Origin: Schmidtea nova
Lineage: Eukaryota
Direction: 5' to 3'
Length of the DNA: 63,468 nucleotides
Assembly (NCBI GenBank): GCA_044892505.1
Contig: CM097883.1
Coordinates: forward strand, 308,822,533-308,886,000
In this document: in pieces, positions 7,854 through 32,232 of the stretch
Position numbering within the stretch: the first letter of the stretch is position 1
Layout: every line of letters begins with the position of its first letter
Made by a program: the position numbers and the translations under genes
Notes under the pieces: model-generated
Told to the model about the DNA's origin: nothing
Database searches by the model: none
Seen by the model: only the letters and a program-made list of their open reading frames with translations

Positions 7854-8355
7854 TTTGTAATTGCTGGGCAAATAATTTTCTCTGTCTTCGCCGTTTCTGC
7901 CCAATGCGCTTGCGTTTTTGGTGCGTATTCGCCGATGAGGTGGTTGAATTTGCTGCAGGAGCTGTCTCATTCCGACTTTCGATTAGATCTGCGACATCCG
8001 TGCCTATGGAATTCACAGTCTTCTTTTCTGATGTCCAAGCTTGGTACGTAACCGGACGGATTTGCTCTCTGAGCTCCTTCTCAATATATGAGGCAGTTAC
8101 GGAATGGAGGCATTTTCGGAGTTCTATCTTTGTAGCCTCCCATTCCATTTGATAATCGGCTGCCGTCTGTTGGGCGCGCTCGGTTTTACTGATTTGCTCC
8201 TTCATTCGGGCCGGAGCAAACCAGCTTTTGCGCAAGTATGCAATCTGTGCCTCTGCTTTGATCAATTGTGCCTTGAGGAGACCCACTTCCTTGTCCTGGG
8301 CCCTCCGAATCCGCCACATCTTCTCCAATTCTCTCTGCATCAAATCGGGGTTCAT
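7854..8355 (-). pseudogene. Truncated copy of LTR ORF-B
   Basis: Identical to 34861->34360, then runs into flanking MITE DNA (the track protein's CFLLVFINKIWLYIRQY tail is flank-derived). Confidence 0.8.
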
Positions 8356-8541
8356 TCTATAATTTATTTAGGATATTTACTCTATGATTTAATTATATGA
8401 AAATTAAAATCTGATCATAGGATTATTAGGTCACGAATATGAACTATTAAAAGGTGAAACAGAACAACAATAAAAAAAAAACAAAAATTCACTAATGAAC
8501 TATAATATTTTAATACAATTTCAACATTGGTTAATCAGTGT

Positions 8542-9021
8542 TCATCTCCGAAATAAACAATGCAATTCGCAGTTAATCGGTTTCTGACGCAGACGAGCCC
8601 AGGAAAACGCAGGTTGTCCTTTCCAGCATTCCTTGCCGAAGGGTTTTCGTGGCAGGAATTCGTGTAGGCCTAGTTGGCATAGTTCCCGACGAGGGATATG
8701 CCCCCAATAAATTACACGGCTTGTACGTCAATCTGTGTTCTTGATCAGTACGACAAGTCGGCCAAATTTGTTCGAGTACGGCCTTTGAGAAATCGGCCAG
8801 TTCGGTCCTCCTCGATAGAGTATTTGGTCGTGCCCTCCTGTCCATATCGAGAACGGGCATTTTCGGCCAAACCCCTGTCGCCACTTATACATTTGGCAGT
8901 TGAGGGTTCGCAATATTGATGCTGGTAGATCCTTGAGCTGCGAGATATTTCCATTTCGCAGATTCTCTCGCTCCATATTCCGTAGTTGCGTTAATTGATT
9001 TATAAGTTCAGCTGTCGACAT
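8542..9021 (-). pseudogene. 3' LTR copy of LTR ORF-A with a premature stop
   Basis: The 8730 SNP changes GGA to TGA after LIKNTD (97 aa vs 159 aa in the 5' LTR). Confidence 0.8.
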
Positions 9022-10393
9022 CTATATTACATTTATTGGATATGAAATATCTGAGAAAAGGGGGGAAAATTCGTTGATAATTTAATTATACTGTATATAA
9101 TCACAAAAGTTACTTAAAAATAAGATTAATTTTCTTTCTCTCCGCCGTGATCTACCACGGTCGGAATAAAGAGTTCATAATTAGTCCTGTGCTATATACA
9201 GCATTCAGGAATTTTCAAATTTAATCAAGATTTCCGCGCTATATACAGCGGTCGGATTATAACTTGGGAACCGCGCCATATACGACGATCGGCCTATTTT
9301 TAGTAACTAATTTAATTTGGATTTTCCGACGCATTCCATCGCGATCGGAATTTATCGATATTAAAATTTTGTAGGCGAGATGCTGATTTCGAATGAAATC
9401 GGACTTTGGACTACGTTGGATTTTCTCATTTCAGCGAAATTATTCAAATTTATTTTATTTGTTGCTCACTGCTTTTCCATGCGGGAGGTTCCATTTCGAT
9501 TCAATTTACTAAAATTTTAAGAGTGAGCATGCCCTACCATGGGGTGTCCCTCCTTATCAATCCGCCCTCCGCAATCTACATATTGGGCCCTCGACCTTCG
9601 TCCGTTGTGCAACCCAGAATTAAATAATTTGCAAATGGTCTGTACTAGACTAAAAATCCAATCAAATTTTCTAACTAAAATTTCACATCTAAGTTAAATA
9701 ATAAAAAGGTTGAACCGCCATGTGAGACCCTGAGGCCCCACGACGACGACTCGGACTCCCTCGCCGCGTGAGCAGCATAGGAAGTATAGCTATAATCAAT
9801 GAAAAAAATAAAATAACGTTTACATATAAACTTTTAATTAAATAAAAATCATGGGTACATCATATAAGATAACATAAAAAATTACTTCCGTACTTGAATG
9901 TGTGGTTCCTTGTATGAAATTCGGTTTTTCCAAAGAATTACTCAAATCAAAGTTTAGTCTTGATCTTGAGTGAAAAATAACGTCTAAGTCTGTGATTTTT
10001 GGATCGGTATTTATACTGATCCGTCTGGTTGGATTGACCAATCAGGATCAGGCCGTCCATCAAAGTATTTTTATTATTTTAATCTAATCTAAACATTATT
10101 TTGTTTCCTTTTCCGGTTTCTCGCTGGGTGGTCCTGATTTTCCAAGTAATTAATTAATTATTTGTACTATTATTTTATTTAATTCTATTTTTTCTCCTTT
10201 CAGGCCCCCTTTTGCGGTTGTTTACCGGTTTATTTTCAAAATTTCCTTTTACTGAAAATTTATCAATTATTATTTGTCGTTTTATTGTTATTTTTAATTT
10301 GTTTTTCTTGCTATTTTTATTTTTATTATTTCTTTATTGTTTCATGCTTTTGTTCGTTTTATTGTGTTTTTAGGTGATTTGGCGGGCCCAACA

Positions 10394-10596: not shown

Positions 10597-11166
10597 TTAT
10601 ACAATTTGTTCGATCGTCTGGCTCGCTTGGGGTTGAGTTCGGGTCCTCTCGTTGATCATTTGTAGCTCGTAGTGGGTTTGAATGTGGTTGAGATGGCTCC
10701 TTATTCGTTTTTGAGATCGGTTATCTCGTCTGGAGGTTTGGTTATAGATTTTCTGCTTTTGTTTTAGGATTTTTATTCTATATGAGGCGATTAGGATTGT
10801 GATTGCGATGATAGTTGTGCTGACTGCTAGGATTATGATGATTGCTATGATCCATTTCTCTTGATATTCTATTTCAGCTTGGGATAGGCTTTTTATGGGT
10901 TCTCTACCTTCTTTCAGGATTTTTCGGGTTTCTTCTAGTTTCAGTTGTTGGTTATCGAAGATTTGTTGGATTTGATGGTCTTGATTGTGAGGGTATTTCT
11001 GTCGGAATTCGTTGATTTCTTTAATTACTTCTTCGATTAGGCTGTCTACTTTCTGATAGGTTTTGTCGGGTAGAACTCGTAATTGGGTTTCGGTTAGTTG
11101 TAGATCTTCTCTCTGTAGGGTAATGGTTGTTAACCATAGGAGTGTTGCTATTGCGAGCTTTCTCAT
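10597..11166 (-). CDS. 189-aa putative type I membrane protein (signal peptide, helical ectodomain, TM, basic tail)
   Basis: First ATG at 11166 gives MRKLAIATLLWLTTITLQ; TM segment WIIAIIIILAVSTTIIAITILIASY is followed by RIKILKQKQK. Confidence 0.75.
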   Translation of the reverse strand: MRKLAIATLLWLTTITLQREDLQLTETQLRVLPDKTYQKVDSLIEEVIKEINEFRQKYPHNQDHQIQQIFDNQQLKLEETRKILKEGREPIKSLSQAEIEYQEKWIIAIIIILAVSTTIIAITILIASYRIKILKQKQKIYNQTSRRDNRSQKRIRSHLNHIQTHYELQMINERTRTQPQASQTIEQIV

Positions 11167-11241: not shown

Positions 11242-12303
11242 TTATACAAGGGTTTCGTTGGGTTCGTGAAAACCTTCGTCTTGAGGTTCCACTTGATTTA
11301 TGGGGAGTGGCATCCATATTACCGTGCTCCTCCACATTTCGACTTCTTCTCGGTATGTGTGGGATATCTGGATCTCTTCATCTAATAAGTATTCCAGATA
11401 GTTCGCCTGTTCTGTTAGGGTTTCAATTTGTTTTTCTAGTTCTGCCAATTTTTTCTCTCTCTCTTCCTTCTCCATCATTTCGGTTACTGCTGCTGTGATA
11501 CTTGTTTCTTTTATTGGTATTGGTTTTTCTGCCAACTTCTTTCTCAGTTCTTCGTTTTCTTTTGTCAAATTTGTTATGTTCTCTTCATAACTCTGCCTCG
11601 TTTCTTCCAGTCTTTCTTTAGTTCTTTTTAATTCTATTTTCTTCTGGGTGATCACTCCTTGATATCCATTTATGTCTCTTTTCATGTTTTCTTCCTTGTG
11701 ATTCCACATTCCGGTCAGCATACCTTTTAATTGTTCTTGATTGGCTAAATCTTCTCCCATTCTTTGTACTTGATAAGTTAATTCTTTTATTTTCTTGGCT
11801 TGTTCTCTGATAAATTGTTGTCTTTCTTTACTCCATATTTTTTTTGACGCTTCTTGACTGATCTTTTGCCCTAATTCCTCTTTTAATTCATCGATCTCTT
11901 TAAACAGTTTCCAATCATCGCTGTACGCTGTTCGTTCTATTATCTCCCTTGCTTCCTTGTAAGAGTCTTTCGCCTCTTTCTTCCAATATCTTGCTTGTTC
12001 TGTGATTGACTGAATCTTATGGTCTGTTTTTATTTGTTGTCTATCCCTATCCTCTCGTCGCTCTTTCATCATCTCTTTGTAGTATTCGTTTTGTTGTCTT
12101 AGCAGTTTGTAGACTTCTTCTATTTTTTCTCGACTTCTTTGATTCGTTTTCTCGGCTTCTCTTAGTGCTTGGGTTTGTCTTTCCAATTCCTCCTGTTTTC
12201 GATAATAGGCATGAATCCATATCCCAATCCGCTCCATGTGATTTCTGATCATTTCGTCTTGATGTGCTGTTACTTCTTGTAAGGTTACTTCTATATTTCC
12301 CAT
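11242..12303 (-). CDS. 353-aa coiled-coil protein of unknown function
   Basis: Intact ORF on the element strand, E/K/Q/R-rich with heptad-like pattern, acceptor-like tatAG two nt before the ATG. Confidence 0.75.
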   Translation of the reverse strand: MGNIEVTLQEVTAHQDEMIRNHMERIGIWIHAYYRKQEELERQTQALREAEKTNQRSREKIEEVYKLLRQQNEYYKEMMKERREDRDRQQIKTDHKIQSITEQARYWKKEAKDSYKEAREIIERTAYSDDWKLFKEIDELKEELGQKISQEASKKIWSKERQQFIREQAKKIKELTYQVQRMGEDLANQEQLKGMLTGMWNHKEENMKRDINGYQGVITQKKIELKRTKERLEETRQSYEENITNLTKENEELRKKLAEKPIPIKETSITAAVTEMMEKEEREKKLAELEKQIETLTEQANYLEYLLDEEIQISHTYREEVEMWRSTVIWMPLPINQVEPQDEGFHEPNETLV

Positions 12304-12416: not shown

Positions 12417-13793
12417 TTACGCCAACCATCCTTTTCTGTCTGTTTTCTCAGGCCTCTCCATCTCTATGTATAGCGTGTCTGCATATAGTCGCTCCCATAG
12501 GTTTTCTTGCCTTATAAACATTGGTTCTCCTGCTGCTAGTCCGCATTCTGTTGTTGGTTTTTCGCTCGTACTCGTATGTTTGTCTGTTTCAAAGAACTTT
12601 TCTACTGGTTTTCCCATACTTTTGATTCTTATAATGACTCCTACTTTCAAGGGCCATTCTATTAGGTCATCGTATTCTCCTTTACATAGTGAGAAGAATA
12701 TTGACACGTGTGTTCCTTGTCCTCTTCCGTCTCCATTTGGGTATACTTTCAATCTTATTTTAACCCCGTTTTTCCATAAATAAAATGGTGGGCTTATTAC
12801 TGCTGTTTTCGTCATATTTCTGGCTTCTGCTAATTTGTCTCTGAAATCAGTTACTTTCCATAGGTAAGGTGCGATTGGTAAGTCCCTTCTTTCGTCAATT
12901 TCTCGTATTAATTGATTATATTGTATTTTCATTCCTTTTCCTAATTCTTCTATGGCTATTATTTTCCTTTCCATTCTTTCGCGAGTTAGTTCAAACTGCT
13001 CTCTTGTTTCTAGTAGTAAACTCATCATTATTTTATGTGATTCTACTTCTTTTTCTAATTTCTGAATTGTCCGTTCCGTTTCTTTAGTCGTTTCGTTTGT
13101 CATTTCCACATGCGTTAGTGCTGCTTCTTCTAGGTGTTGTTTCATTGATTGCCGCGTCCGCTTTTCTTTGCATCCCTGTTTGTTATATGGGCATTCTCTT
13201 GGCCTTTCGGTACATAGTTTCCAATGTTCATGTAATTTTATTTCTTCTGTTATTTCACAATTGTTTGGACATTTACTTACATATTGTCCGCATACTTTCT
13301 CCTCTGTTATATTCAAGTGTTCTTCTTCGATTTTTCTCCTTGTTTCTCGGGCTTCACAATACTCGCATGCGATTTCTTCTTCTTTACATTCTTCCTTGTG
13401 TTGTTCTCTCTTCTTTAGAATTATTGTCTGTTGGCACTTCTCGCATTCGGTTCTTTTCTCCTCGCACTTTTCCATATGGTTTTCTAGATTACTTATTTGT
13501 CCTTGCCATGTACAAGGTGTATTTACGCACTCCGTTGTGGTGCTCATAATTTCTCTTTGGGTTGCTTTGTCCGTTCTGGTTTCGTCCAACGCTATTCCTC
13601 CTTCTTTACATTCTGGGCATGTTGTTATTCCTGTTACATCTAATTCTTGTATACATTTTGTACATATTCTACATCCACATATCGTTTGTCTGGGTTCTCG
13701 TAGTAAATTGTTACATTTTCCGCATGTGAGTCTCTTGCTCCATTTTCTGTTTTCTAGTCTCAAAATTTCGATTATTCGTTCTTCTCTGTCCAT
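12417..13793 (-). CDS. TRAF-family protein (RING, TRAF zinc fingers, coiled coil, MATH/TRAF-C domain)
   Basis: RING CGKCNNLLREPRQTICGCRICTKC...CPEC; zinc fingers CVNTPCTW...HMEKC and CPYNKQGC...H; MATH YLWKVTDF...SPPFY...LKVYPNGDGRGQGTHVSIFFSLCKGEYDDLIEWP (TRAF2/3/5-like). Confidence 0.93.
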   Translation of the reverse strand: MDREERIIEILRLENRKWSKRLTCGKCNNLLREPRQTICGCRICTKCIQELDVTGITTCPECKEGGIALDETRTDKATQREIMSTTTECVNTPCTWQGQISNLENHMEKCEEKRTECEKCQQTIILKKREQHKEECKEEEIACEYCEARETRRKIEEEHLNITEEKVCGQYVSKCPNNCEITEEIKLHEHWKLCTERPRECPYNKQGCKEKRTRQSMKQHLEEAALTHVEMTNETTKETERTIQKLEKEVESHKIMMSLLLETREQFELTRERMERKIIAIEELGKGMKIQYNQLIREIDERRDLPIAPYLWKVTDFRDKLAEARNMTKTAVISPPFYLWKNGVKIRLKVYPNGDGRGQGTHVSIFFSLCKGEYDDLIEWPLKVGVIIRIKSMGKPVEKFFETDKHTSTSEKPTTECGLAAGEPMFIRQENLWERLYADTLYIEMERPEKTDRKGWLA

Positions 13794-13885
13794 TTTCTAA
13801 AATAATATATACATTCGACTTGTCATTTATTTTTGGTTTTTCTTGTTTTTATTTTTACATATTTACAGTTTTCCGCTTTATTTAT

Positions 13886-14242
13886 CTATGGCTCATTCGT
13901 TGAATCTGGTTCCGCTTCGTTGGTTAATCTATTTATTACCCAACTCATCCATCCTTCTTCGGATCCTTCTCTTTCTCCTCGTGTTAAATGGTTTATTTCT
14001 ATTGCTTGTCTTTGATTGGTGTTGCTTATCGTTTGATTTTCTCTGGTGAGTTCAGTTATCGCTCTTTGTTGTTCCTCTATTCTGTGTAATTGTTCGAAAC
14101 AGTTGTTATAACTTTCTGATAATAACATTTGTCTTTCCGCTAATTGGTTCTGTAATGAGTTGACTGTTCGTACTAATAAATCACATTGTGCTTTCCATCT
14201 CATAGCCATAGTTATTTCAGTTGTTTCGTCCTGTTCGGTCAT
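13886..14242 (-). CDS. 118-aa coiled-coil protein of unknown function
   Basis: Intact ORF between longer cargo ORFs, acceptor-like tttAG three nt before the ATG. Confidence 0.65.
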   Translation of the reverse strand: MTEQDETTEITMAMRWKAQCDLLVRTVNSLQNQLAERQMLLSESYNNCFEQLHRIEEQQRAITELTRENQTISNTNQRQAIEINHLTRGEREGSEEGWMSWVINRLTNEAEPDSTNEP

Positions 14243-14389: not shown

Positions 14390-17300
14390 CTATACCATCA
14401 TTATCGTCTTTTCCTCGTATCGTTCGTCATCTTCTATTTGTTTCCAGAATTCTTTACCTTTCGTTCTTCTTTGGAATTCTTTCTGTATCTCTTCTGGTAT
14501 TTCTATTCTTTGTTTCATAATTTTAATATCTGGCCATTGTATGGCTGTCGCTTTGTTTCTCTTTCTGTATCTCCAATATATTATCATGCTTGTCGTCATT
14601 ATCCCATATGCTATTAATATTCCTATGCTAATTAATCCTATTACTGTTTTTCCACGGTTTGTTTCTCCTTTATTCTGGTTCGCTTTTATCTCATTTTGGG
14701 TTTGAGCCTCTGGCTTCCTCTCTTTCTGTATTTGATTCTTGACTTTGTTCATTACTTCTTGTGTAGACCAATGGCGGTTTAGTAGTTGTTTGACGTTATT
14801 TTCTTTTGTTCGGTTTTCCACGTTTCCTGGTTCGATCTGTTGTTGTAGTTTCTCTGAGATCTGATATAATCCGCATTCTGGTTTTTCTGAACCTTTTCTG
14901 GTGAAGGTACATATCGCGTATGTCCTATTTACTTCCATTTTCTTTAATTCGACTTTTTCTTTATTCTTTATTTCTTTACAGTGGGTTAGGTTGTCTTCTT
15001 CCCCTTCTGGGTTATGCTTTGTCCAACATATTCCTTTAACTGTCTGATCGAGTCCTGTTAATGTCAGAGTTCTTTCTGTCTTTGTTAATTCTTCTTCATC
15101 GAATTTCAGTATCTCTCCTTTTTGGAATGTCTTGCAATGCTCTATTCCCTCTTGGATTCCTCTCTCCCAGATACATATACTTCCTTCTTCATTCATTTGT
15201 ATTTCTTGTATTTCGATTTCCTTGTTTGTTCGTGATTCGTCGCTTGTCTGAACTTGGTATTCCTTCCTTGGTTCGTTGTATGTTCCCCAGCATAGTTTGT
15301 TGCTACTTGTTTTCCTTATTGTTATGGCCATTTGTTCTATTATTATTCCTTTATCGATACGTTTGGACATTGCTAGTATTAATGCAATGCATACGCACTC
15401 CTGTTGGGGTGATATTCTTTCTCTCGTTTTATTGGTGCTCCTCTCCCCTTCTCTTGGTTTGTTCGTTGTATTTTCCTTCTGAGTTGCTGGTCGATCTATT
15501 GTGTTTTTGATCTCTTTCTTTGTTGGTTTTACTTTGTACCACTCAAGTCTAGGTGTTTCATATTTTTGGCATACGACTGTCTTAGGTAGCCCTGACTTCT
15601 TTTCCTTTCCTATTATACATATCCGATGCATGATTCCTCTGTCCATCCCTTCTATTCGTACTATATCCTGGTTGGATTTTCTGACTATACATTTTAGTGG
15701 GTTATCTTTCCCAATTGGTTCATCCTCTCTATTCCAGCATATTTTCTCGACCTCCTGGACATTTACTATTTTTATCCCTGCTTGTAGGTTTGTTGCTTCT
15801 TCCCTATTGATTAATGTTAGTATTATTGTTAGACCCAACCATTTTGAACTCTGCGGTAGGCTTCTGGTTCGCCTTTCATATTTTTTCTCTTCTCCTTTAA
15901 TCTCTTTTATTTCCTTGTCTTTGTTGTTTATTCCTAGTTTTCCGCTTTTTGCTTCTTTCTTTTTTGGTTCTTCTCGTGCTTCTTCTTCTAGCATTTCCAC
16001 TCCATGGCTTGTACTGTCTCTATTTGTCCATTGGGTTACCGATTTCTTTGGGTTTATCTTGCGTATCCATATAGCTGATAACGCGATTATTACTGGTATG
16101 GTCGCTGTTAATATTCCTAAGCCGATTAGTTCTTTAATTTCTTTATTCTCGTCTGTTTGTATAGGTTCGCTTTGGTTGAACATTATTCCGTATTGTCCCT
16201 TTAGTTTTCTCATTAATTGTTCTCGTTCCTCTTGCTTTCTTTTGACTTCTTTGATAACTTCTTCGGGTGTCCATTTTGCTTGAGGGTCGGTTATTGTTTT
16301 TTCTGCGTCCATTTGTTCATTCGTTTGGCTTAGTTCCCTGAATTCGAGTTTCCTTGTTATTCCTTTTGATGTTGCGTTTACTGGTGTATAGTAGGTTTCG
16401 CATCTTTCTTGTTGGTTTTCTAGTGCGTCCGTTTTTTCTATTGTACATACTTCGTACTCGCTATTAAATTGTAGTCTTTCGATCTTGATTTCTTTATTTG
16501 TTTTTCTGCACTCTCTTGATTGTCTTCTTATATATTTCTGGACTAGTATCCAACATATCTCCAATGTTTTATTCTCTATTTTCCATAATGTCAGAGTTGC
16601 TGATGTCTTTTTCTCGGATTTTGTCGTAACTTCTTGGCTTATCGGTTGTTTATTGTTTTTAAAGGTAGTGGTGTACTTCGGTTTCCCTTTGTTTCGTTGT
16701 CTTCTTTTATTTTTTCGTGTTAACGTTTTAGTTCTTGTTCCGGAGGAAGTGGTGTATATTCCGCATTCAAGATCGTTTATCGTTATCTGATCATTTTTCT
16801 TTACCAGACATATTTCGTAAGTTTGTTTACTTTCTAAACCTTTTATTTGTATCGTCGTTGCTCCTGTACTTGTTCGACATTGTGGTGTCTTTCTTTCATT
16901 CGTCTCTTTTTCGTACTTCCTCCAGCATACTCCTTTCACATTTGGTTCTATTTCTTTTATTTCTAATGTTATGTTTATTTTCCGCTTGATTTGTTTATTT
17001 CTCTTCCTCGTTCTCCTTCCGAACTTTATTACTTCTCCGGGTTGAAATGTTTTACATTTTGTGGTACCTTTCTTGTTTGTCTCTTTTTCTAATAGGCATA
17101 GTTTGTACATCTTATCTGCTTTTACTTCGGATACTTTAATTACTTTGTTTGTTGTTGGTTTTCGACTTTTCCTTATTTCATTTACGCCGATTTCCTCGTT
17201 ATTCCTCGCCCAACATTTTATGTTAGTATTCTGTGTATCTTCTACTTCTGTTATTGTCATAGTTTCAATTTCTATTCCTTCCTCTAATCGTTTTATTATT

Positions 17301-17473
17301 ATTAGTATGAGTGCTAAGCATAATACTTCCATTTGGTAAGACACTCTTTCGGTTTCGTTTGTGGCAACTCTTGCTTCGGGTCTTTTTATTGTAATTCGTA
17401 TAGTTGGTGTTGTTTGCTTATCTATTACCTGGGGTTTTTTGTTTTCTGTTCCCTGTGTCTCTGTATGCAACAT
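14390..17473 (-). CDS. 1027-aa membrane protein with six Cys-containing FN3-like repeats and two TM anchors; probable frameshifted continuation of the polyprotein
   Basis: Repeated motif CW-x(n)-I.I.GL...Y.IC-x13-15-C. TM segments LIGLGILTATIPVIIALSAIWI (about 16064-16135) and VIGLISIGILIAYGIMTTSMIIYW (about 14573-14645). Overlaps the end of the 4633-aa ORF. Confidence 0.8.
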   Translation of the reverse strand: MLHTETQGTENKKPQVIDKQTTPTIRITIKRPEARVATNETERVSYQMEVLCLALILIIIKRLEEGIEIETMTITEVEDTQNTNIKCWARNNEEIGVNEIRKSRKPTTNKVIKVSEVKADKMYKLCLLEKETNKKGTTKCKTFQPGEVIKFGRRTRKRNKQIKRKINITLEIKEIEPNVKGVCWRKYEKETNERKTPQCRTSTGATTIQIKGLESKQTYEICLVKKNDQITINDLECGIYTTSSGTRTKTLTRKNKRRQRNKGKPKYTTTFKNNKQPISQEVTTKSEKKTSATLTLWKIENKTLEICWILVQKYIRRQSRECRKTNKEIKIERLQFNSEYEVCTIEKTDALENQQERCETYYTPVNATSKGITRKLEFRELSQTNEQMDAEKTITDPQAKWTPEEVIKEVKRKQEEREQLMRKLKGQYGIMFNQSEPIQTDENKEIKELIGLGILTATIPVIIALSAIWIRKINPKKSVTQWTNRDSTSHGVEMLEEEAREEPKKKEAKSGKLGINNKDKEIKEIKGEEKKYERRTRSLPQSSKWLGLTIILTLINREEATNLQAGIKIVNVQEVEKICWNREDEPIGKDNPLKCIVRKSNQDIVRIEGMDRGIMHRICIIGKEKKSGLPKTVVCQKYETPRLEWYKVKPTKKEIKNTIDRPATQKENTTNKPREGERSTNKTRERISPQQECVCIALILAMSKRIDKGIIIEQMAITIRKTSSNKLCWGTYNEPRKEYQVQTSDESRTNKEIEIQEIQMNEEGSICIWERGIQEGIEHCKTFQKGEILKFDEEELTKTERTLTLTGLDQTVKGICWTKHNPEGEEDNLTHCKEIKNKEKVELKKMEVNRTYAICTFTRKGSEKPECGLYQISEKLQQQIEPGNVENRTKENNVKQLLNRHWSTQEVMNKVKNQIQKERKPEAQTQNEIKANQNKGETNRGKTVIGLISIGILIAYGIMTTSMIIYWRYRKRNKATAIQWPDIKIMKQRIEIPEEIQKEFQRRTKGKEFWKQIEDDERYEEKTIMMV

Positions 17474-20400
17474 GCAATTGTGTTGTGTGATCTTGGATGC
17501 TTTTGTTTTCTAACGGTGCATATTTTGTACCAGGTATTTAGATCTAGGTCGTTGATCTCTATGATCTCTTGCTCGTGTTTTGAGATTCTGCAATCCATCG
17601 GGCTATTTTGTTCCGTGATTTTGTCCTTTTTTGACCAACATACTCGTTCGATTCCTTTCGCGTTTTTTATTTGTATTATTGCCCTTTCTTCACATGTCAT
17701 TCCTTGACTTGGATTAATTAACGTTATAATCATTGTTAGTAATAGTAATTCGGGTTTGAAGAATGGTTTTATGGTTGATTTATAACCTGTTCTTTGGGTG
17801 TCATTTTTATCTCCTTGGACGTTTTTTCCTTGTTCTCCATCTTCATCTCTTTGTTTTTCGTCTTCACTTTTCTTTTCTTCCTTGTCTCGTTTCTTGTCTT
17901 TTCTCTCGTTTTCCTCTTTATCGGGTGGTTCGTGATCGTTTGAATTTTCTGAGTTGTTACCGTCGTCACTATCTGTATTGTCATCTCCCCCTGGCTCGTC
18001 GAAAATGTCGTCCTCGACATTGATTTCTTCTATCAATTTTGCATATGCTAATGTCGTTAGATTACTTGCCTCAAATTCTTGTGTTTCTACCTGCTCCGGT
18101 ATTACTTTGTTTGTGGATTTATATTCTAAGATTTCCTTTTTGGCCTTGATCCAATTGTTGATGTATGTCTTCATCAATTCTTTCCATTTGCCTGTGTATT
18201 TTTCTTCTTTCGGGCTGGTTGTGATTCTTAGATCCTTTCTTTCCATAAACATCTTCAATATCTCTGGCCATTTATACGTTATTAAGGCACTTCTTATACA
18301 CCAGTTTTGGTTATGTTCTGTAAACTTATTAATCCTGAATGCTGGTTCGTTAGTATTAGGATTTATCCACGTAAGTATTGATTCTGTTAGTTCGACGTTG
18401 TTCATCATTGCTAGTACACTGGGTTTCTTGACCGAATCAGTTAGGTGATCTATTTCTTCCTGATTTGGGACGGTTTTAATGAAATTGACCATTTCCCAAT
18501 TGTGTGTTAATAATGCTACATCCAATATCGAATTATCTTTATCTGTCTTTCCAGTAAGTCCTGCACCTGCTTTGTATAGTTCTTCTAATACCTTTGTTTT
18601 CGTTTTGGCCCTTGCTGCAAATACCATAAGTGTATCTCCTTTCTCGTCTATCATATTCATATTGCTTCCGCAATTTAGCATTACTCTTGCAATTTCCATT
18701 ACTTTCCTATCTTTGCCATTTCGTAGAGCTCTATGTATGGGCATTATTCCGTCTTTTGGTAATAGGAATGTTACTGGCATCTCCTTTTTTATTATTACTA
18801 TGTCGTTACCATTGTATGTTCCTTTTGCGTATGCGTGTACTTTTTCAACTAATGCGCCGAGTATTTCCAGTGCATGTTTACTATTCTCGAATTCCGGTAA
18901 CAATTCTTTTGCTTTTTCTTGTATCGCATCTAGTCTAGCTTGGTATGGTGCTTCTGCTTTGAAGAGTGGTGTGAGTTTCTTGTTACTTTCTCTTTCTTTT
19001 TTCTCTAAAACCTGTTTGCATTTTTCGGGATGGTTTAAGATTTTTACTAGCTCCTCATATTCGCTTACTATCGTCTGGTATTTCTCGTTAAAATTGTTTA
19101 TGTCTTTGTATGTTATTAGTTTATCAAGTGGTTTCGCACACCATTTCCTAATCTTATTGAATAAGGCTTCCTTCTCTTTATCGAATTTGTATTCTTCTTC
19201 ATTCTTTGTGATGTTTATGTTTCCTCTGTCTAATAAGGTTAGTAATGTCTTCTGATCACAAGTAAATTTCAAAAGGTATCTTAACAGTGCGTTTTGTCCT
19301 TCGCTGTATACTTCGTTTATGTCTAAGACCCATGTATCATCTTCTGGTCGTTTCCATTTGATTAACTTACGGATCGTGTTGCATTTACCAATTTTGATTG
19401 CCTCTTTGATAATGTCTCTTTTAACTAGTTCGTCTATTTCCCAAGTGCAGTTAGCTATTATGTATTTCAGCATTGGTTGGTGAGAACTCCATATTACGTG
19501 ATTTAGCACTGTTTTGTCTTCTCTATCTCGTTCTGTCCAACTGAAATGAGCTTTTATCAATAGATCTATCATTTCTTTATCTGCTTGGTGGATTGCGGCT
19601 GTCATTAATGGAGTTTCTTGTTCCCGATTCCCTATGTCCAAGTTTTGGTTTGTTTCTTTTGCGATTTTTAGGAATTCTTTTGCTCTTTCCATGTTTTTAC
19701 ACTCTATCGCATTATGTAAGGCTGGTTGTCCTCCTACATCTTTCAATAAGAGTATTTCAGGGATTTTTTCCAATAATTCAGAAATAATTGGTTCGGTTGG
19801 TAATCCTTGTGCGTAACGGCTAATTATATGTCTAATATCCCTTGATATGCCTGCTTCGTCTTTAACATGCCATCTTCCCATTATCTCTCTCGCCTTCAAT
19901 ATGATTTCTTTATTTCTGATTTCTTTTTGCCTTATTTCTTCTTTGTCGTCTTCAGTTGCATTAGCTCTGAGCATGTTTATCCTGGCTGTTTGTGATCTGG
20001 TTATTATTCGATTTTCTGGTGTTGTAGTTATCGTTTTAGGCACCTTCTTACATCTGCAAGTGTTTACATATATGGGTCGTATTAACGGTCGATTTATTAG
20101 CTTAACTTTGACATTATTGTCCTTTTTGTATATAATTTCATACGGTCCTCTTCCAGGTCTTTGGAGTTTCTTAACTGTTCCTGGTATTATTTCGGGAGTT
20201 TCTATTATCACCCAATCTCCTGGTTTTAGATCGTTCGCTTTAACATTTTTCTTCTGGTCGTGTAAGTCCTTATAACTTTCCTGATAAAATTTGATGTTGA
20301 GTTCTGCCGTTTTCCATATTTCCTGCATTCTTTCTTTGAATTTGGTTACATAGTCGTCGTCTTCCATGTATTGCGATAATGGTGGTTGATACTCTAAATC

Positions 20401-23400
20401 TATGGGCATGTTGCATTCTCTTCCATACATAAGTTGAAACGGGCTTAGTTTTGTTGCTGCATGTATCGACATTCGGTATGCCATTAAACATAATTTTATA
20501 TATTCGTCCCAATCAGTCTGATGTCTGCTGACGTAATTTGATAACATTCTGATCAATGTACCATTGAATCGCTCCGTTTGTCCATTCGTTTGCGGGTGAT
20601 ATGGTGAAGTTCTCAATTTTGCTATTCTGAAATAGTTTGTCACCTCGTTCAATAACTCACTCATGAAGTTAGTTCCTTGGTCTGTGAGTATTTGTTTTGG
20701 AGTTCCGTATCTGCAACATATTTCTTCTACCAAAATTTTTGCTACGGTTTTTGCTTTTTGGTCTTGCATGGCAAATGCTTCTGGGAATTTTGTCAGATAA
20801 TCCGTTATTACCAATATATAAATATTTCCGTTTAGACTTTCCGGTAATGGTCCTATTACGTCCATTGCTATAGTTGTCATTGGCTCTGCTGGTATCGGCA
20901 TTGGTTGTAGCGGGTTCTTCCATTTCTTCCCACTATCCTTTCTGGTTGCACAAGTTAGACAATTTTTAATCCATTCCTTTATATCTTCTTCCATTGTTCG
21001 CCAATAATATTTTTGTCTCATACGGTTTATTGTCTTTTTCTCGGACATATGACCTCCTAATTTCCCATCATGGTATTGGATCATTATCTCTTTCCTTCTG
21101 TTTTCCGGTAAACACATCAATCTCTTTTCTCCGTCTTGTATTAACAACCATCCTTTATTTATTATGTAGCGATGTTGATATTTTCCTATATGTTCCTTTA
21201 ATTCCTTATTATCCTTGAATGCCTCCATATTTCGAGACGTTAGGAACTCTATGATCTGTCCCAATTCTTTGTCTTCCTGTTGATCTTTCTTTAACTCACT
21301 AAAATCTAAATCCTCCGCTATTAATACACAAATTCGTTGTACATCAGGATCGGTTAGTTCCGGAAATGTCAGTCTTGACATACAATCTGCATTCGCATTC
21401 GCTTTTCCTGATTTAAATTTTATGTCTGGTGAGTACTCCTGTAACTGCATCGCCCATCGCATTAATCTACTGGATGTTTCCTTGTGCTGTCCTAACCATA
21501 CAAGCGGTTGGTGATCTGTTGTTATGCAGATGATGTGACCCCATAATAAATATTTAAAATGTTTTATTGCTAGTATAATCGCTAATGCTTCCCGTTCTGT
21601 CACTGAATAATTTTTCTCATGCTTTTTGAATGTCCGGCTATAATATCCGATTACCCGTTCCTTTCCTTCGTCGTCGTATTGTCCTAATACGGCTCCTGCT
21701 GCATATCCGCTTGCATCTGTTGCAAGTAGGAATGGCTTCTTGAAGTCTGGGTGTACCAATATAGGTGCGGTTATCAGTTTATCTCTCAACGTTTCAAAGG
21801 CTGTTTGCTGTTCATCTCCCCATATGAATGATACATCTTTCTTTACCAGCTCCTGTATAGGTTTTGCTATTCCGGCGTAATCTTTTATAAACTTTCTATA
21901 ATATCCACATAGTCCGAGAAATTCTTGTATTTGGATTATTGTTTTTGGTACTGGACATTCTTTTACCTTGTCGATGTTTCTAGGATCCGGTTCTTTTCCT
22001 TTTGCTGACACTATATGTCCTAAAAATGTTACTTTCTCTTTAGCCCAATCACATTTGGATGGCTTGAGTTTTAACTTCCATTGTCTAAGTCTAACGAATA
22101 CATCTCGAATATCTTGTATGTGTTGTTCGAATGTACTAGAATAAATTAATAAATCGTCGATGTAGACCATGCACTGCTTTATTCCATGGGTGACGAAATT
22201 CATGCATCTCTGAAATGATGCTGGTGCGTTCGTTAATCCAAATGGCATCTTTCGAAATTGATATAGGTCTCTACCGATGGTAAAGGCAGTTTTCTCTTTA
22301 TCCTCTTCCTTCATTTTTATTTGCCAATATCCGCTTTTCAGATCTAACGACGTAAAATATGCTGCTCCTTGTAATGTTAGTAGCATCTCGTTGATGTCTG
22401 GTAATGGGTAAGTATCTCGTTTTGTCACTGTATTCAATCTTCGGTAATCTATACAGAATCTCTGTGTTCCGTCTTTCTTCTTCACCATTACCACTGGAAA
22501 TTGCCAGGGTGAACAACTTGGTTCGATTACTTCTGCATCCAACATTTTCTTCACTTCCGCTTCTGCTACTGCTTTCTGTGCTTCCGCTAATTTGTACGGC
22601 CTTAATGCAATTGGTGTTTCATCTGTTAATGGTATTGTATGTAGTGTGACATCACATGTTCCTAGATCTAAATCGGATGCTGCAAATATATCCTTATACT
22701 CTATCAGGAGTTTTTCTAATTGCTTCTTTTGATCCTCATTTAATAATTCACTATCAATATTCCAGGTTGGCTCTTTATCTTTCTCTGCCCCTTCTATTGG
22801 TAGTTCGATATCCATCATTGGGGTTAGTTTGCCTAATCTTTCGTTTTCGTATATTATTTTGTCCTCTTCATCGAAGTTTACTACGTTTATTGGGATTTCT
22901 CCATCGTCATTTATGTTGACTAGTCCTCTTGCCATTGGCAATGCTTTTCTTTTCTCGAATCTTTTACTTGGTTCGAAAATCATATCACCTTGGATTGTCG
23001 GATCTATTTTTACGTAACATATTTTCTCCTTTCTTGCGGGTATGATCATTTGCTTTGAACTTGTCACTTTGGCTTCTATTGCGCATATTTGTCCGGTGCG
23101 ATCTTTTAGTCTCATTGTTCCGAGATCGATTACAATCTCTTTAAATAACGCTGGCATCAAATCTGTTCCGATAATGCAAGGCACGCTTAATGCTGGTATA
23201 ACTGCTACGTACGTATCGATTTCCGTGTTTAAGTGGCGTATTTTTACCCACCATCTTCCTGCTACTTCTACAACTTCTTTGCTACATGCAATTACGTGGA
23301 CGTTTGTCCTTTCTATTTCTCGTCTTTGCTCTTGTGGTATCCATTTGATGTCGATGGCGGAAATGTTTGCTCCCGTGTCGATCATTGCTTCGATTTCCCT

Positions 23401-26400
23401 TCCGTTAATCTCTATTGTCGTGGTTAGTACTGGACCTGTGTTTGATGACATTACTGCGATCGTGTGTGTATCTCCTTGTGGATCTACGCTTCTACATCTT
23501 CTCATTTTATAATCTTCCGGTATCATGGGGTATACATTTGTCATTGGCATCATTTGCATCGTGTTATTTTTTCCTCCTTGTAGTGGTTCTTGATACATTG
23601 TTGGTGGAGGTGCGTAACATTTCCATGCGTCGGCTGGATTCTTTTCGATGTATTGTGGTGCTTGGTTCTTATACACTTGTCCTCCCTTATAGTCGTCATC
23701 GTCATCATCGTCGTCACTCGAATCATTTTGGGTTTTATATCCTTTCATCCTTTCCCATAAACCTTTTCTTTCTTTCTTGAGCTGTTGTCTTGCTTGTTCG
23801 TCATTCCTTATCTTTTTAAATTTTCGTCCTACTTCTTCATCTGTTCCCTTCATTTTTGCTAATATCTTTAGGAGTCTTTTTATTCGGTGGATATCTTTTG
23901 AGTGGCCGTGTAACACCATCGTTTTCGCAAGGAATGGTAAAAACCCTACTACCATTTTCCAATTCACTTTCTTTTCTCTCTTGTAAATATCGAAACATGC
24001 TAACATTTGCGTTATTATCACTCTGACGATTTGGATTATTAGTATGACCCCCAGTATTCCGGCCATCATTTGTCCGAATATCAGAAATCTTCCCCACATT
24101 GCTTTCATCATGTTTTCTGTGGCTTTTTTGAAATGTGCTGGTGACAACAATAGTTCATAATTCGGTCTTTCTCGATAATCCGTTCCTCCCGTTATCGTTA
24201 CGATATTTGACAGTAATGCTTCTCTTCTCGCTGGAAATAATATATTCTGCCTTGCTGCTTCTAAATCCTTTGGACTATATATTCCGTTGTTTGAGACATC
24301 TACGTCGCTGAATTGCCTATCCTTTGACAACTGCATTAGCTCGAATTCTCTTGGTGCTATCACTTCGGATCTTCCTGGGAACATAACCCATTTACCATCT
24401 GGTTTCTGATAAAGCGGTCCATACGCATTACTACAGTTGAATGGATTTGGTTCAAACCCTGGTGGATTGATGATTCTCGTCACCGGTTGAACGTATCGTA
24501 CTTTTCCTTTGTAATCGATTTCTAACTCATTTGTACAGGTTCCAGGTTTCAACTGTGTTGTTGCTGCTAGTGACGCGTGTGTCTTTTCGCAAATGTATAC
24601 ATACATTGCTTCTCCAACCACTCTTCCGAAATGTCCTTCTCTCAGTGGTAATAATGGCATCGCGCTATCTGGATTCGTAATCGCTACCGCCAACTTTGTC
24701 TTTAATATTTCTCGATTCAGTATACAATCATTGTTTATCAGATTGTAGTATACTTTTTGTAATGAGGCTTGTCCTCTATGGAATAGGAAATCCATTTTAT
24801 TATTCACATATAGGTGTAGTTTGATATCCATTGTGTCGATTTTGGGTTTCGCATTTGGCACTTCTTGTTTTGACACATATATTCCTGGATAATTCGTTTC
24901 GTATACCGTTGTACTACACTTAAGGGTTGCTTTCCCTTTTATGAATCTCATTCCCACATCTTGATTTGTGGTTATCAATACTGTTGGTGTGGCTCTCATC
25001 TCTATTCGTTTTTCTCTATGATCTGGTTTCAGTTGTCTTTTATTCTCTAAAGCTTCCTTGAGATGCTTTGCTCTATCTTTGTCGTCATCGTCTTCTTCCT
25101 GGAACGTTTTTCCTTGGATTTCGTCGAACTTTGCTCCTTGTAGCAGTTGTAATTGGCATTCGTTCACCTTTGGTTTGTATACTAATGTTGACATTCCCGT
25201 TTGACACATGCTCCTGTCGATTTTACACATGGATAACGTTTTCATTTCTCCCGTTGTTGGTTCGAAGAATGCTTCGTAGCTTTTCAGTTCGACTATATAC
25301 GTATCCATCACCACTAAGTTGGTTGCGGGTACTCCGAATATCGGGTAGGTTTCTCCTTGACAATATCCTTCTCCTCCCGTAATCCGTCCTGCTACATAGT
25401 ACGTCTGTTGCATCATCATTCCTGGCTTTCCTCTTATCTTGATTTTATCTCTTGTTGTTACTTCTCCATGTTTAAACAGTGCTTCGCAGTCTTCTCCTTG
25501 TAACACGATTGGTTCTCTTTCCGTTCCTGGCATGACAATTGCTGAATAGTGTCCTCTCCCGCAGTAGAATGCGAATCTCGTCTTCTGCACCTTACATTCA
25601 TTCACCATTGTCTTTATGAGTTCTGCTTCTTGATACACGTGGTACCATTGTTCCTTTTTAATCTTTTGCAACTCTACTGGAGTTGCATCTTTGCATTGCT
25701 CCGTACCTCTTAATGAATACTTTTCTCCTAACTTCATTTGGTCGCAATCAAATACTTTGAATGCTGTTGCGCTATCGGTGCTAATCATCCATATCAACAT
25801 CATCATTATTATAGAACTCAGATTCATTGATGACTTTGCGTTTCCTGTTCCTGTTTGTTCTTTTTCTAACTCTTCCAATATTTTTTCGAATTTCTTTTTC
25901 ATATTCTTGGCTTGTGTTTTCTTCTGGTTAGTTTTTATAAATGTTTCCCATCCTCCTTTGTTAATGACGTAAGGTTCTATTTCTCTAGCTATAATCTTTG
26001 CGGTGTTTTTTATATGTCTCTCTAATGCAGTGGGTTTTGGTCGACCTCTACTCAATGTCAACAGATTGTAGATCGTGTATGCAATGGCTATTACGTATTT
26101 GTTATCAGTTTCCGCTCCTTCTGTCAATTTCTTTATTAACGTAGTGGTTCCTTGCCAGTCTAAATGATTTGACTTCGTCTTTTCTTTTATGAATTCCGGT
26201 AAGATGGGTGCGATTGCGCTGTGTAATGACTTTGCCTTTTCGCTTATCTCAGTTAAGCGCCAGTATTTTCTCAATTCCGGATCAATTATTGCCAATATCT
26301 CCATTATCGTTTTCGATATCCATTCCTCCCCTTGACATATTGGTGTTGTCTCTTTTTCTTTCATCTCCGCAATTTTATTTAATTTCCTTAAACATAATTC

Positions 26401-29400
26401 CCATTGATCTTGTCTCTTTTCGTCTTTATTTCTTACAACTACAGTTGCTGGGTCTGTCTTAGGTCTACCTCTAGGTCGTTTATCCATTCCTGTACCTGTT
26501 TCCACAAACCTTGTTGCTCGTCCGGTTTCTTCGGTGACATCTCTTGGTTCGTTAGCTCTTTCTTCTAACCATCTTTCCATTTCTTGTGTTAATTGTACAT
26601 TTTCGACATTCGCTCCTCTTGTTTCGTCTTCTGTTAGATCGTTTACTTCTTCTATTATTATTTCTTCTTCGACTTCTGCTTCTCCGGTGTTGGTTACTTG
26701 TATTGTCGTAGGTAGTTCTTGTATTCTTTCGAAAATGTTATCGTCCTTTTCCCTTGTTAATTCGGTTAACTCTTCTATCATATCGTCGCTATCCGTTAAA
26801 ATTTCGTCCACGTCGTATGGTTGTGGTGGAGTCCTTTCTCTGGTTCCTCTGGGTGTTGTCTCAGATCGTCTTGAACTTGTCCCTGGTGTTAGTACTGATT
26901 TCATCGGGCTTGGCGTACTTATACTTCCGTGTGGTTTATGGTTTTCTTCTTTACGTTTCAATGGTTGACCCGCTATTGCTTCTACTGTCAAGGTATTCAT
27001 GAGGTCTAATTGTGCTGGCGTTATTCCGATTTCCAAACTGTTATCTAATGATCGTCCTTGGTGTTGTAAATGGAATGGTGGTTCGTATCTCAATTTCTTT
27101 TTAATATCTCGAATTTTTTCTGCTATTCCTACCCACAACTCTTCCTTATCCTTGTTTGGGTATATTATTCTTAAATGTACTTTCTGTGGAATTTCCTGCG
27201 AGAATTCTTGATTTCTCCATTTCCTAATTACGTGGTCTAGTTGTTCCGGACACCACTCGTTAACTCTTTTATATTCCGCGATTGCTTTTGCTACTTTACG
27301 CAAGCATGTTATATCTTCCCCATTTACCACGAAAAAATCTGCGAGACCCTTTATTACTTTTCTCTTACCGTGCGCATTAGTTTTTAATATTTCGACAAAT
27401 TCTTCCGTTTTTTGCTTTTCCCTTTCTAACCACATGGCCGCTGTTTCTGGTCCATCTAGGTCTATTGGCGTAGCTTTCCTTGTTACCATGCAAACTCTTC
27501 CTATCTCTGGTTCGCAGTCATCTTCAATTCCTCTTTTATATTCTTCTTCATATTCCCCTTCTTTTGGTTCCCAACATTTTCCTTTCTCGTTCCATTGTTT
27601 TTCTCCGGGTGTTCGTATTCGTCGGTTGAGATTGAGTTCTTCTAATACATTTTCCCATTCCGGCCGAATTCGCCAATTTCGATAGATGTCTATTATTTGT
27701 TGTAATTTGCGCACAACTTCTTTCCGTCGTTCCCGTTCTCTTTTCTCATCTTTAGCAGTTTCCCTTGGTGTATCGTCCATTCTGCTAACGTGGATTGTTT
27801 GGTGATTATCCCATATACCGATTTTATATAATCGTCTCTCATCGTGATCCCATAATACATGTTCGTTGTATTGTATGATTATGTCGTCTTCCCATTCGTC
27901 TTCTGGTTCTCTTTGCACTAGTGTCTCGTTGATGACATTTATTAATTCCTTAATGGTGCAATCCGCTACCACTTCGATTTCTTTGGTGTCCTCATTAGGT
28001 AATTCTACCGAAATCTTTAGATCTGTTATTTTCCCTTGTCTAAACATTGTTTTTCCCATTTTTGCGATTAATTTGTCGTGTGAGATCTGTGACCATCTCG
28101 TGTGGCTTGTGTCACGTATGCACTCAATACATCGTTTCAATTTCTCGTATTCGCTTCTCATTAATTCTTTTCTATGTTTTTTGACTTGTGGTATGATTTG
28201 TTCTATCAGGGAATTTAGATTCTTTCGTAAGACTCGTTCTTTCTCGTATTCTAACCGAGGTTTTATTCTCTTTTCGAAGCACGTGTTTGCTTCTCTTGCA
28301 ACTTCTTGTAGGTTCTCTTCTTCCTTTTCATCACATATTGATAACAGAGTTATTTCTCCTGGCCATATACCTGTTTCCACTAAGTGCGTTCTTTTCTTTA
28401 CGAGTCTATTCTGCGAATAGATGAATTTGTTTTTATATGAGCTCCCTAGTCTATCCTCTACCCATCTGTAGATATCGTCTGTAAATGGAGTTTTGATCCA
28501 GATTCTTGGTGTAGATGTATTTATTATTATTGAGATGGTGTAATTGAGGAGTGGTTCCTCTATTAATTTCCCTACGTATCGATTCAACATGTCTACTTCC
28601 CGGTCTTGTAACCATTCTTTGTAGTTCATTTGTAATAATGCTTTCATGAATTTCCGATATTGTTTCTTGTCCATGAACTCTTCGTTATATATTACTTCTA
28701 GCGAGTTATCTAGTAATTTCTGGATTTCATCTACTTTTATCTGTGTAGGTTCTGAGGTCTTTATTACTTCTCTCTCTTTATTTTCATCTTCGGATTCGTT
28801 TAATATGTCTCCTGCTAGGCTACTGATATCACTATCTTCTTCTTCATCGGAAAACTCTCTGGTGGTATTTCTTAGCATATTAATATGTGCTATTTGGTTC
28901 GTTTCTCCTTGTATATTCTCCGTTGGTTCTGGTTCGTTTTTGTCAATTTCTGGTGTTGGTTCACTCTTGTCCTCTATTACTTCGACTTTTCCCATTTTCT
29001 TTCCCAACTCGTCTATCTCTTTTAAACGTCTTCTTATCATTTTTCCTTCAAATATTCGCCGGATTCGGGTTTCGTGACGTATTGGTGGTGGAATTTCTTC
29101 TGGTTTTATTTCTTTAATTCTCATCACATTTCTTTTTGTCTCTGTTACTCCCACGTTTTCCCATGTATCTGTTAATTTTAATTTTACTGATGGTGCATCT
29201 CCTATTTGTAAGAACGCTTCTCTGGGCAGTTTTGTCACTCCTGGAATCATCTGGTTTACTTTATTGAACAGTATTTCCACCTTTTCTTTTGCGTTATATT
29301 GGAATCGAAACATATGGTCGTTGGGCATGATTACCATCATTCCTTTTTTCCAAATTTTTCTTCTCTCTTCTTGGTTTATCTCAGTTTCCTCTCCCTTTTC

Positions 29401-32191: not shown

Positions 32192-32232
32192 ATAACGCCT
32201 AGCTAGGTCATTCAATAAGGCTCATTGGCCTC

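What the first reader, a model, noticed from the sequence alone, without database searches (positions are those of the whole stretch)
12417..13793. Full-length intronless TRAF gene inside a retroelement
Seen: complete RING, zinc finger, coiled-coil and MATH architecture as a stand-alone ORF. The RING has Cys at the position usually occupied by His (CGCRIC vs CGHRFC). Established: TRAFs are adaptors and E3 ligases of TNFR/TLR signalling, and flatworms have expanded TRAF families. Inference: captured via an mRNA; part of reported host TRAF expansions could be retroelement cargo.
Basis: partly seen in the sequence, partly recalled or inferred. Interest (0 to 1): 0.8.

Follow-up and report, generated by a model that had tools for sequence, protein, structure and literature searches.

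The report
TRAF gene carried by giant retroelement
A complete copy of a host immune-signalling gene (TRAF) is a fixed, selectively maintained passenger of two high-copy giant jumping-element families in a planarian-type genome, where it likely helps the element steer cell-survival signalling; this extends a cargo already reported for these elements, and the worm's own TRAF expansion is separate and appears older.

Summary
Observation confirmed. 12417-13793(-) encodes a 458-aa TRAF (RING, five zinc fingers, coiled coil, MATH) in the 3' accessory block of a Burro-type giant Ty3/gypsy LTR element (7854-36899). It is no one-off: 38 of 39 copies picked by their RT carry it, 30 of 38 are intact, pN/pS is 0.135, and a second family keeps a 51%-identical TRAF in the same slot. 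The His-to-Cys RING is inherited: 25 of 26 host TRAF RINGs sampled share it, as do three Dendrocoelum TRAFs. Several host TRAFs are single-ORF too, so the missing introns do not show mRNA capture. No host TRAF nests among element TRAFs; the host expansion is real, though element copies probably outnumber host genes in the DNA. Spacers hold a conserved AG acceptor before the ATG and invariant TGTAHATA motifs, suggesting spliced subgenomic mRNAs (no RNA data). MATH cargo in Burro is in print (PMC6431247). This scan noted the TRAF cargo and the acceptors before, on other DNA. New variant of a known kind.

The parts
33797..36899 (-). 5' LTR, about 3.1 kb, TG...CA on the coding strand
   Evidence: Ends defined by LTR pairs of 9 of 10 other copies, 99.87-99.97% identical, each with a 4-bp target-site duplication
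35048..35527 (-). 159-aa ORF inside the LTR, no family; AG directly before its ATG
34265..34861 (-). 198-aa ORF inside the LTR, no family; AG 1 nt before its ATG
33773..33790 (-). Primer-binding site complementary to the 3' end of host tRNA-Pro(TGG)
33004..33465 (-). 153-aa ORF with a C-terminal C3HC4 RING of the kind found in IAPs (kind recalled); no BIR domain found
   Evidence: zf-C3HC4_3 E 3e-11; 46% identical homologue in family F2, 28% in F3
31905..32585 (.). 32-bp and 29-bp tandem repeats in the leader
17425..30777 (-). 4450-aa polyprotein: gag with CCHC knuckles, viral fusion glycoprotein, protease, RT, RNase H, integrase, ankyrin repeats
14390..17473 (-). 1027-aa ORF with weak FN3-like repeats and hydrophobic segments; in this copy separated from the polyprotein by a frame break near 17.43-17.47 kb
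   Evidence: frame stays open upstream in 13 of 16 anchored copies (of 39)
13886..14242 (-). 118-aa accessory ORF, likely coiled coil
   Evidence: pN/pS 0.114; 51% to F2
13794..13885 (-). 92-nt spacer with two TGTAHATA motifs and a putative splice acceptor AG (13797-13798) 3 nt before the TRAF start codon
12417..13793 (-). Full-length TRAF gene, 458 aa
13608..13724 (-). TRAF RING, eight Cys ligands (aa 24-62), Lys26 at the position of TRAF6 Ile72
13110..13529 (-). Five TRAF-type zinc fingers (aa 89-228)
   Evidence: sequence
12885..13121 (-). Coiled coil (aa 225-303)
12456..12866 (-). MATH / TRAF-C domain (aa 310-446)
11242..12303 (-). 353-aa accessory ORF, likely coiled coil
   Evidence: pN/pS 0.084; 54% to F2
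10597..11166 (-). 189-aa accessory ORF with hydrophobic N-terminus and a likely membrane segment
   Evidence: pN/pS 0.256; 36% to F2
7854..10393 (-). 3' LTR, truncated (last ~560 nt missing)

Best explanation
The ORF is a complete TRAF gene fixed in two high-copy families of Burro-type giant LTR retroelements and kept under purifying selection; it was likely captured once, long ago, from the planarian host's Cys-RING TRAF lineage and likely works as an element-encoded signalling adaptor. Shown: architecture, position in the 3' accessory block, presence in nearly all copies, low pN/pS, shared RING type with host TRAFs. Inferred, expression: the gene would be made from a subgenomic RNA spliced to the AG just before its ATG (cis from a leader, or spliced-leader trans-splicing). 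Inferred, action: the protein would trimerise through coiled coil and MATH, join host TRAF complexes or receptor tails, and tilt them toward survival or lower immune output in the cells where the element replicates, in step with the element's IAP-like RING gene. Its RING looks TRAF3-like (Lys at the TRAF6 Ile72 site), so it more likely scaffolds or heterodimerises than builds ubiquitin chains alone.
For: 92 of 92 scored matches are full length at 95-100% identity, 87 without a stop (ranked by likeness, so biased). Unbiased for TRAF: 38 of 39 RT-picked copies have it, 30 of 38 intact, pN/pS 0.135; shared variants omega 0.13 versus private 0.40 (Fisher p 2e-8), lower than the polyprotein end (0.29). 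Family F2 has the same gene order with TRAF at 51% and polyprotein at 57-70%. Element TRAFs and host TRAFs fall on one side against 8 non-planarian TRAFs, 99/96; with 36 rows they stay outside the clade of named non-planarian TRAFs, 97/95. Shared Cys RING and a shared insertion in zinc finger 3. Spacers: 0 of 62 motif and acceptor sites carry a shared variant versus 46 of 338 other sites, p 4e-4; TGTAHATA 7 times in 630 nt of spacer, 0 in 18,876 nt of coding. TRAF RING heterodimers in which one partner supplies only the ubiquitin site are shown for TRAF5-TRAF6 (PMC5702613, passages). Burro1's captured IAP is reported to protect stem cells (second-hand, PMC13465017, passages); host TRAF-like genes are needed for cell survival (PMC7586133, abstract and passages).
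Against: No expression, binding or phenotype data for this gene. 8 of 38 copies are broken. No specific host donor was found: the element pair sits in an open fork among host lineages, with a biased amino-acid make-up, and its sister is an unnamed protein P0137 (97/94). Peptide-groove residues differ from TRAF3 (SSSF versus TSTS, ASGCP versus AAGEP; their role is recalled), so its ligands may not be host receptor tails. No canonical splice donor conserved between F1 and F2 was found by pattern, and the last ORF in F1 lacks a YAG. Lys at the Ile72 site also occurs in 23 of 139 database TRAF RINGs, so it says little by itself about ligase activity. A Bcl-2-like region, a BIR and a dUTPase were not confirmed by Pfam.
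Confidence: 0.6

Rival explanations
1. The TRAF is an autonomous E3 ligase of the element that ubiquitylates host restriction or silencing factors, rather than a scaffold in survival signalling.
For: All eight RING ligands are kept in F1 and F2 (29-30 of 30 copies at each ligand); Cys at ligand 4 is normal in host planarian and in echinoderm TRAF3-like proteins; the element carries a second RING gene.
Against: Lys26/Asn28 stand where TRAF6 has Ile72/Leu74, whose mutation abolishes Ubc13 binding (alignment; PMC5702613 passages); 23 of 25 host Cys-RINGs keep a hydrophobic residue at the first site (read).
Confidence: 0.2
2. The TRAF serves the element's own particle or membrane biology (binding the cytoplasmic tails of the element's membrane proteins or fusion glycoprotein), not host signalling.
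For: It sits among coiled-coil and membrane ORFs that are conserved in order in F1 and F2; the MATH groove has diverged from TRAF3 and from host TRAFs; family F3 keeps only MATH, fused in the polyprotein.
Against: RING and five zinc fingers are kept whole; no partner was tested; I did not test the tails for TRAF-binding motifs against chance.
Confidence: 0.12
3. The direction is reversed: element-borne TRAFs seeded the host's single-ORF Cys-RING TRAFs, so the planarian expansion is domesticated cargo.
For: Several host TRAFs are single-ORF; host monophyly against the elements is weak (62/70); element copies are far more numerous.
Against: 0 of 30 host MATH rows nest in the element clade; none of 54 host-like stretches holds the flanking accessory ORFs; host MATH domains score closer to the canonical profile than element ones (up to 145 versus about 93 bits); Dendrocoelum has Cys-RING TRAFs, one sister to host L070 (95/94), while the Burro1 expansion is reported only for Geoplanidae and Dugesiidae (second-hand).
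Confidence: 0.06
4. The TRAF is a neutral passenger that looks intact only because the copies are young.
For: LTR pairs are 99.87-99.97% identical, so copies are recent.
Against: pN/pS 0.135 with omega 0.13 on shared variants; open frame and ligands kept across F1/F2 at 51% identity.
Confidence: 0.02

Closest known systems
Burro / GYPSM1 giant Ty3/gypsy LTR retrotransposons of planarians (Jurka 2007 and Grohme 2018, not seen; as described in PMC6431247, passages read)
   Same: About 30 kb, internal region 23.4 kb, one huge polyprotein with gag-CCHC, a mononegavirus-like fusion glycoprotein between gag and protease, PR-RT-RH-IN, ankyrin repeats, RING accessory gene, MATH_TRAF_C cargo. Family F3 in this genome has MATH inside the polyprotein like Burro1. 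The review states that a Dugesia tigrina element has the MATH domain in a separate accessory ORF.
   Different: Here the cargo is a whole TRAF (RING, five zinc fingers, coiled coil, MATH) and lies downstream of the polyprotein, whereas the review speaks only of the MATH domain, in the polyprotein or in an upstream ORF. No BIR, Bcl-2 or dUTPase was confirmed by Pfam in this copy.
TRAF2/3/5 subfamily; planarian TRAF-like genes (Smed-TRAF-2A/B, Dendrocoelum TRAF-2/4/5, Dugesia TRAF2-like)
   Same: Domain order, five zinc fingers, fold, Cys-type RING and zinc-finger-3 insertion shared with planarian host TRAFs.
   Different: Only 24-33% identical to any host or database TRAF; multiplied by retrotransposition; Lys at the E2-contact site; altered MATH groove; K/E/T/I-rich make-up.
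Burro1 B-IAP, a captured anti-apoptotic gene said to support neoblast survival (Lee et al. 2026, paper not held, known only through PMC13465017 passages)
   Same: A host death-pathway gene carried as an accessory gene by the same kind of element.
   Different: B-IAP has BIR plus RING and functional data; the TRAF has none, and the window's RING gene has no BIR.

Membership tests
Burro-type giant Ty3/gypsy LTR retroelement | Long LTRs with TG...CA ends, target-site duplication, primer-binding site | tested here: met
   3.1-kb LTRs and 4-bp TSD in 9 of 10 other copies; tRNA-Pro PBS; TSD not testable in the window copy (3' LTR truncated)
Burro-type giant Ty3/gypsy LTR retroelement | PR-RT-RH-IN order in one very large polyprotein with gag | tested here: met
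Burro-type giant Ty3/gypsy LTR retroelement | Fusion glycoprotein in frame between gag and protease; ankyrin repeats | tested here: met
   PF24664 at aa 1926-2266 E 1e-69, Ank_2 at 3687-3776
Burro-type giant Ty3/gypsy LTR retroelement | Giant size (over 30 kb with LTRs, internal up to 25 kb) | tested here: inconclusive
   29.0 kb as it stands, about 29.6 kb with a full 3' LTR; internal 23.4 kb: just under the quoted total
Burro-type giant Ty3/gypsy LTR retroelement | MATH_TRAF_C cargo | tested here: met
Burro-type giant Ty3/gypsy LTR retroelement | BCL2-like, BIR, ubiquitin-like and dUTPase-like motifs | tested here: inconclusive
   Ubiquitin-like E 0.07; no Pfam hit for Bcl-2 or dUTPase in the pieces scanned, no BIR in the RING ORF; the review used HHpred, not run here
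Burro1-4 named families | Sequence identity or RT phylogeny with the published elements | not testable with these tools
   Published Burro sequences were not on hand; only layout was compared
TRAF family (TRAF2/3/5 type) | RING, zinc fingers, coiled coil, MATH in that order | tested here: met
TRAF family (TRAF2/3/5 type) | C3HC4 ligand pattern in the RING | tested here: not met
   Eight Cys; the same holds for 25 of 26 host RINGs and 16 of 139 database TRAF RINGs, so this is a known-type variant inside the family
TRAF family (TRAF2/3/5 type) | Trimer formation, receptor-tail binding, ubiquitin ligase or heterodimer activity | not testable with these tools
   No complex prediction was run; needs bench assays
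Spliced-leader operon (flatworm type) | Same-strand genes under 300 nt apart with an acceptor before the downstream gene | tested here: met
   Spacers 75-147 nt, YAG before 6 of 7 small F1 ORFs and 5 of 5 F2 ORFs; threshold from PMC12582326 passages
Spliced-leader operon (flatworm type) | Spliced leader found on the downstream mRNAs | not testable with these tools
   No RNA run available

The most novel reading that the evidence does not exclude
These env-bearing giant retroelements are complex endogenous viruses of planarians that run a captured, whole TNF-receptor signalling adaptor from an operon-like cassette cut into separate mRNAs by splicing (possibly the host's spliced leader), and with over a thousand genomic copies their TRAF, together with their IAP-like RING, sets the survival threshold of the worm's stem cells.
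Probability: 0.2. Interest if true: 0.8.

Novelty: new variant of a known kind. Interest (0 to 1): 0.48.

Why it matters
It turns a domain-level annotation (MATH in Burro) into a testable gene: a whole TRAF under purifying selection in two element families. If expressed and active, it would be a second host death-pathway gene used by these elements besides B-IAP, bearing on whether they are parasites or mutualists of planarian stem cells. It also has a practical use: genome-based counts of planarian TRAF genes need element copies masked, while the true host expansion (a large cluster on C2 and older Cys-RING lineages) remains and needs its own explanation. The conserved spacer signals point to how a 30-kb element expresses many small genes.

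Tried and rejected
Splice donor: a GT(A/G)AG pattern scan found four sites in F1, none with evident F2 homologue; inconclusive. AATAAA enrichment in spacers was not significant (p 0.08). First pN/pS estimate (0.14, 30 copies) was set aside as biased by protein-score ranking and replaced by the RT-picked set. Cys RING as a planarian-only mark: rejected, it also occurs in echinoderm TRAF3-like proteins. Lys26 as an element-specific inactivation: rejected, human TRAF3 has it. Pfam scans for Bcl-2, dUTPase and BIR gave nothing. Homologue searches with the window protein or alignment A1 returned no relative above 36% identity and no named element TRAF. Lee 2026 and Grohme 2018 could not be read. 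No complex prediction was sent, since a TRAF trimer or TRAF-TRAF dimer would pass by likeness to solved structures. Trees: P0005 left out as an isoform of P0004; tandem near-duplicates left out.

Full report
Observation. The interval 12417-13793 on the minus strand is one open frame of 458 aa. Pfam finds MATH at 310-445 and a TRAF zinc finger; solved-structure searches match TRAF1-6 over both ends; an AlphaFold model from a 19-row alignment has mean pLDDT 86 and its best Foldseek hits are TRAF domains.

Setting. The gene lies in a minus-strand LTR element. Two LTR copies match with one mismatch in 2540 nt. Ten other copies were fetched at both ends; nine gave an LTR pair of 3.1-3.2 kb, 99.87-99.97% identical, each with a 4-bp target-site duplication; the tenth had no 5' LTR in the stretch fetched. 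So the window's 5' LTR is 33797-36899 and its 3' LTR is cut at 7854. An 18-nt primer site six bases after the 5' LTR is complementary to the host tRNA-Pro(TGG). Gene order: 153-aa RING, 4450-aa polyprotein (gag, viral fusion glycoprotein, PR, RT, RH, IN, ankyrin), 1027-aa FN3-like ORF, 118-aa ORF, TRAF, 353-aa ORF, 189-aa ORF. The FN3-like part is set off by a frame break in this copy; the frame is open there in 13 of the 16 copies that could be anchored, out of 39. The host is a planarian by inference: a host TRAF is 70% identical to a Dugesia japonica protein.

Is it a one-off? No. A protein search of G000 scored 92 of 5493 candidates; all 92 are full length at 95-100% and 87 have no stop. 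Because that ranking favours intact genes, I picked 39 copies by their RT (all non-self rows; fetched). 38 carry the TRAF at the expected place, and the 39th lacks the whole 3' block; 30 of 38 are intact, 4 have a frameshift and 4 a stop. pN/pS is 0.135; shared variants give omega 0.13 and private ones 0.40 (p 2e-8), the pattern expected when selection acts on replicating copies. The neighbours give 0.08-0.29. A MATH profile search (150 of 2419 candidates scored) exposed family F2, with the same gene order, a 51%-identical TRAF and a 57-70%-identical polyprotein (7 of 7 F2 loci fetched had Burro neighbours), and family F3, with MATH alone inside the polyprotein. First-look DNA candidates number 510, 539 and 405; these are not copy numbers but suggest hundreds each.

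The Cys RING and the missing introns. Among host-like loci, 25 distinct RINGs were found and all have Cys at the fourth ligand; one further, intron-containing TRAF4-like gene has His. Three Dendrocoelum lacteum TRAFs have Cys, as do echinoderm TRAF3-like proteins; overall 16 of 139 database RINGs. So the change is inherited and tolerated. Six host genes have RING to MATH in one open frame, so the lack of introns does not show that capture went through an mRNA, although RNA template switching is the usual route for LTR elements (recalled).

Origin and the host expansion. In a MATH-region tree of 45 rows the six element rows form one group (97/78, not starred, long branches) with none of 30 host rows inside; 19 rows of the C2 cluster form their own clade (96/96). 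In full-length trees elements plus host genes are separated from non-planarian TRAFs (99/96; 97/95 with 36 rows), host L070 is sister to a Dendrocoelum TRAF (95/94), and the elements' sister is unnamed P0137 (97/94). None of 54 host-like stretches held the flanking accessory ORFs; ten had distant pol, env, RING or LTR-ORF fragments nearby. By my sorting, about 73 of 150 matches are host-like, about 63 of them on C2 at 405-455 Mb. The expansion reported from transcriptomes (99 MATH transcripts, PMC6109357, passages; also PMC7586133 and PMC8807557, passages) therefore has a real host basis here, while element copies would dominate raw genome counts.

Expression signals. The accessory ORFs are 75-147 nt apart. 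A YAG ends 0-7 nt before the ATG in 6 of 7 small F1 ORFs and 5 of 5 F2 ORFs, against 21% of all ATGs (p 5e-4 for F1; the window was chosen after looking, and F1 and F2 are related). The AG before the TRAF ATG is present in 38 of 38 copies. TGTAHATA occurs 7 times in 630 nt of spacer and never in 18,876 nt of coding DNA, and motif plus acceptor sites have no shared variant in 62 sites against 46 of 338 others. A donor scan was inconclusive. No RNA was available.

Mechanism. Most likely the protein is an element-encoded adaptor that assembles with host TRAF complexes and biases them toward survival or weaker immune output. The RING has Lys and Asn where TRAF6 has the Ubc13-binding Ile72 and Leu74 (PMC5702613 passages), as TRAF3 has Lys, whereas 23 of 25 host Cys-RINGs keep a hydrophobic residue; TRAF5 can complete an active site in a heterodimer with TRAF6. 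The MATH groove has changed. All of this step is inference.

Known work. PMC6431247 (passages) lists MATH_TRAF_C among Burro1 polyprotein motifs, says a Dugesia tigrina element has it in an upstream accessory ORF, and suggests meddling with apoptosis and ubiquitination. Burro1's B-IAP function is known to me only through PMC13465017 (passages). PMC8532177 (passages), PMC11410931 (passages) and PMC4558846 (passages) do not bear on a Burro TRAF. Searches (listings) turned up no paper on a full-length TRAF in Burro, but Jurka 2007, Grohme 2018 and Lee 2026 and their supplements were not seen and may describe it. This scan's own notes record the same cargo in this genome and another and the acceptors in another genome; these are not independent support.

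Verdict. Real, robust and selected; a new variant of known Burro cargo rather than a new kind. Interest 0.48.

Noticed in passing
window 11167-14389 (four spacers) and the LTR ORFs: Each spacer has a TGTAAATA-type motif about 15 nt after the stop and an AG just before the next ATG; the motif matches the Pumilio element and also a fused UGUA/AAUAAA polyadenylation signal (both recalled). Invariant across 39 copies.
   Followed up: partly
window 14291-14317: Poly-T run on the plus strand (poly-A on the coding strand, 27 nt) in the first spacer, variable among copies and absent in F2.
   Followed up: no
window 43050-48085: A second, ordinary 5-kb gypsy element with 308-bp LTRs (99.7% identical) and gag, protease, RT and integrase in broken frames (read translations).
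   Followed up: no
window 663-7657: Inverted repeats of about 460 nt in two pieces (88-92%) flanking 6 kb, like a DNA transposon, ending 200 nt from the truncated 3' LTR; near-perfect hairpins at 2536-2658 and 2841-3002.
   Followed up: no
window 58400-58732: 110-aa ORF with a GIY-YIG-like motif (recalled), part of a three-copy repeat in the window; possibly a Penelope-like remnant.
   Followed up: no
G000:C2 about 405-455 Mb: Large cluster of host TRAF genes, many with two coding exons and some in tandem arrays of 4-5 kb period; all RINGs read are Cys-type.
   Followed up: partly
L074:4568-5572: Host ORF with two MATH domains in one frame.
   Followed up: no
L039:1483-2658: Host TRAF in which a poly-Asn run replaces most zinc fingers.
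   Followed up: no
L160 (G000:C1 about 459.6 Mb): Tandem array of tRNA-Pro(TGG) genes with a 308-bp period; 899 matches to the 3' pattern genome-wide. It is the element's primer tRNA.
   Followed up: partly
P0137: Unnamed 452-aa Cys-RING TRAF that is sister to the element TRAFs (97/94); either a related element's gene or the donor lineage.
   Followed up: partly
P0090-P0099 (five of them over 1200 aa): Unnamed database proteins with up to 19 matched TRAF stretches in one chain.
   Followed up: no
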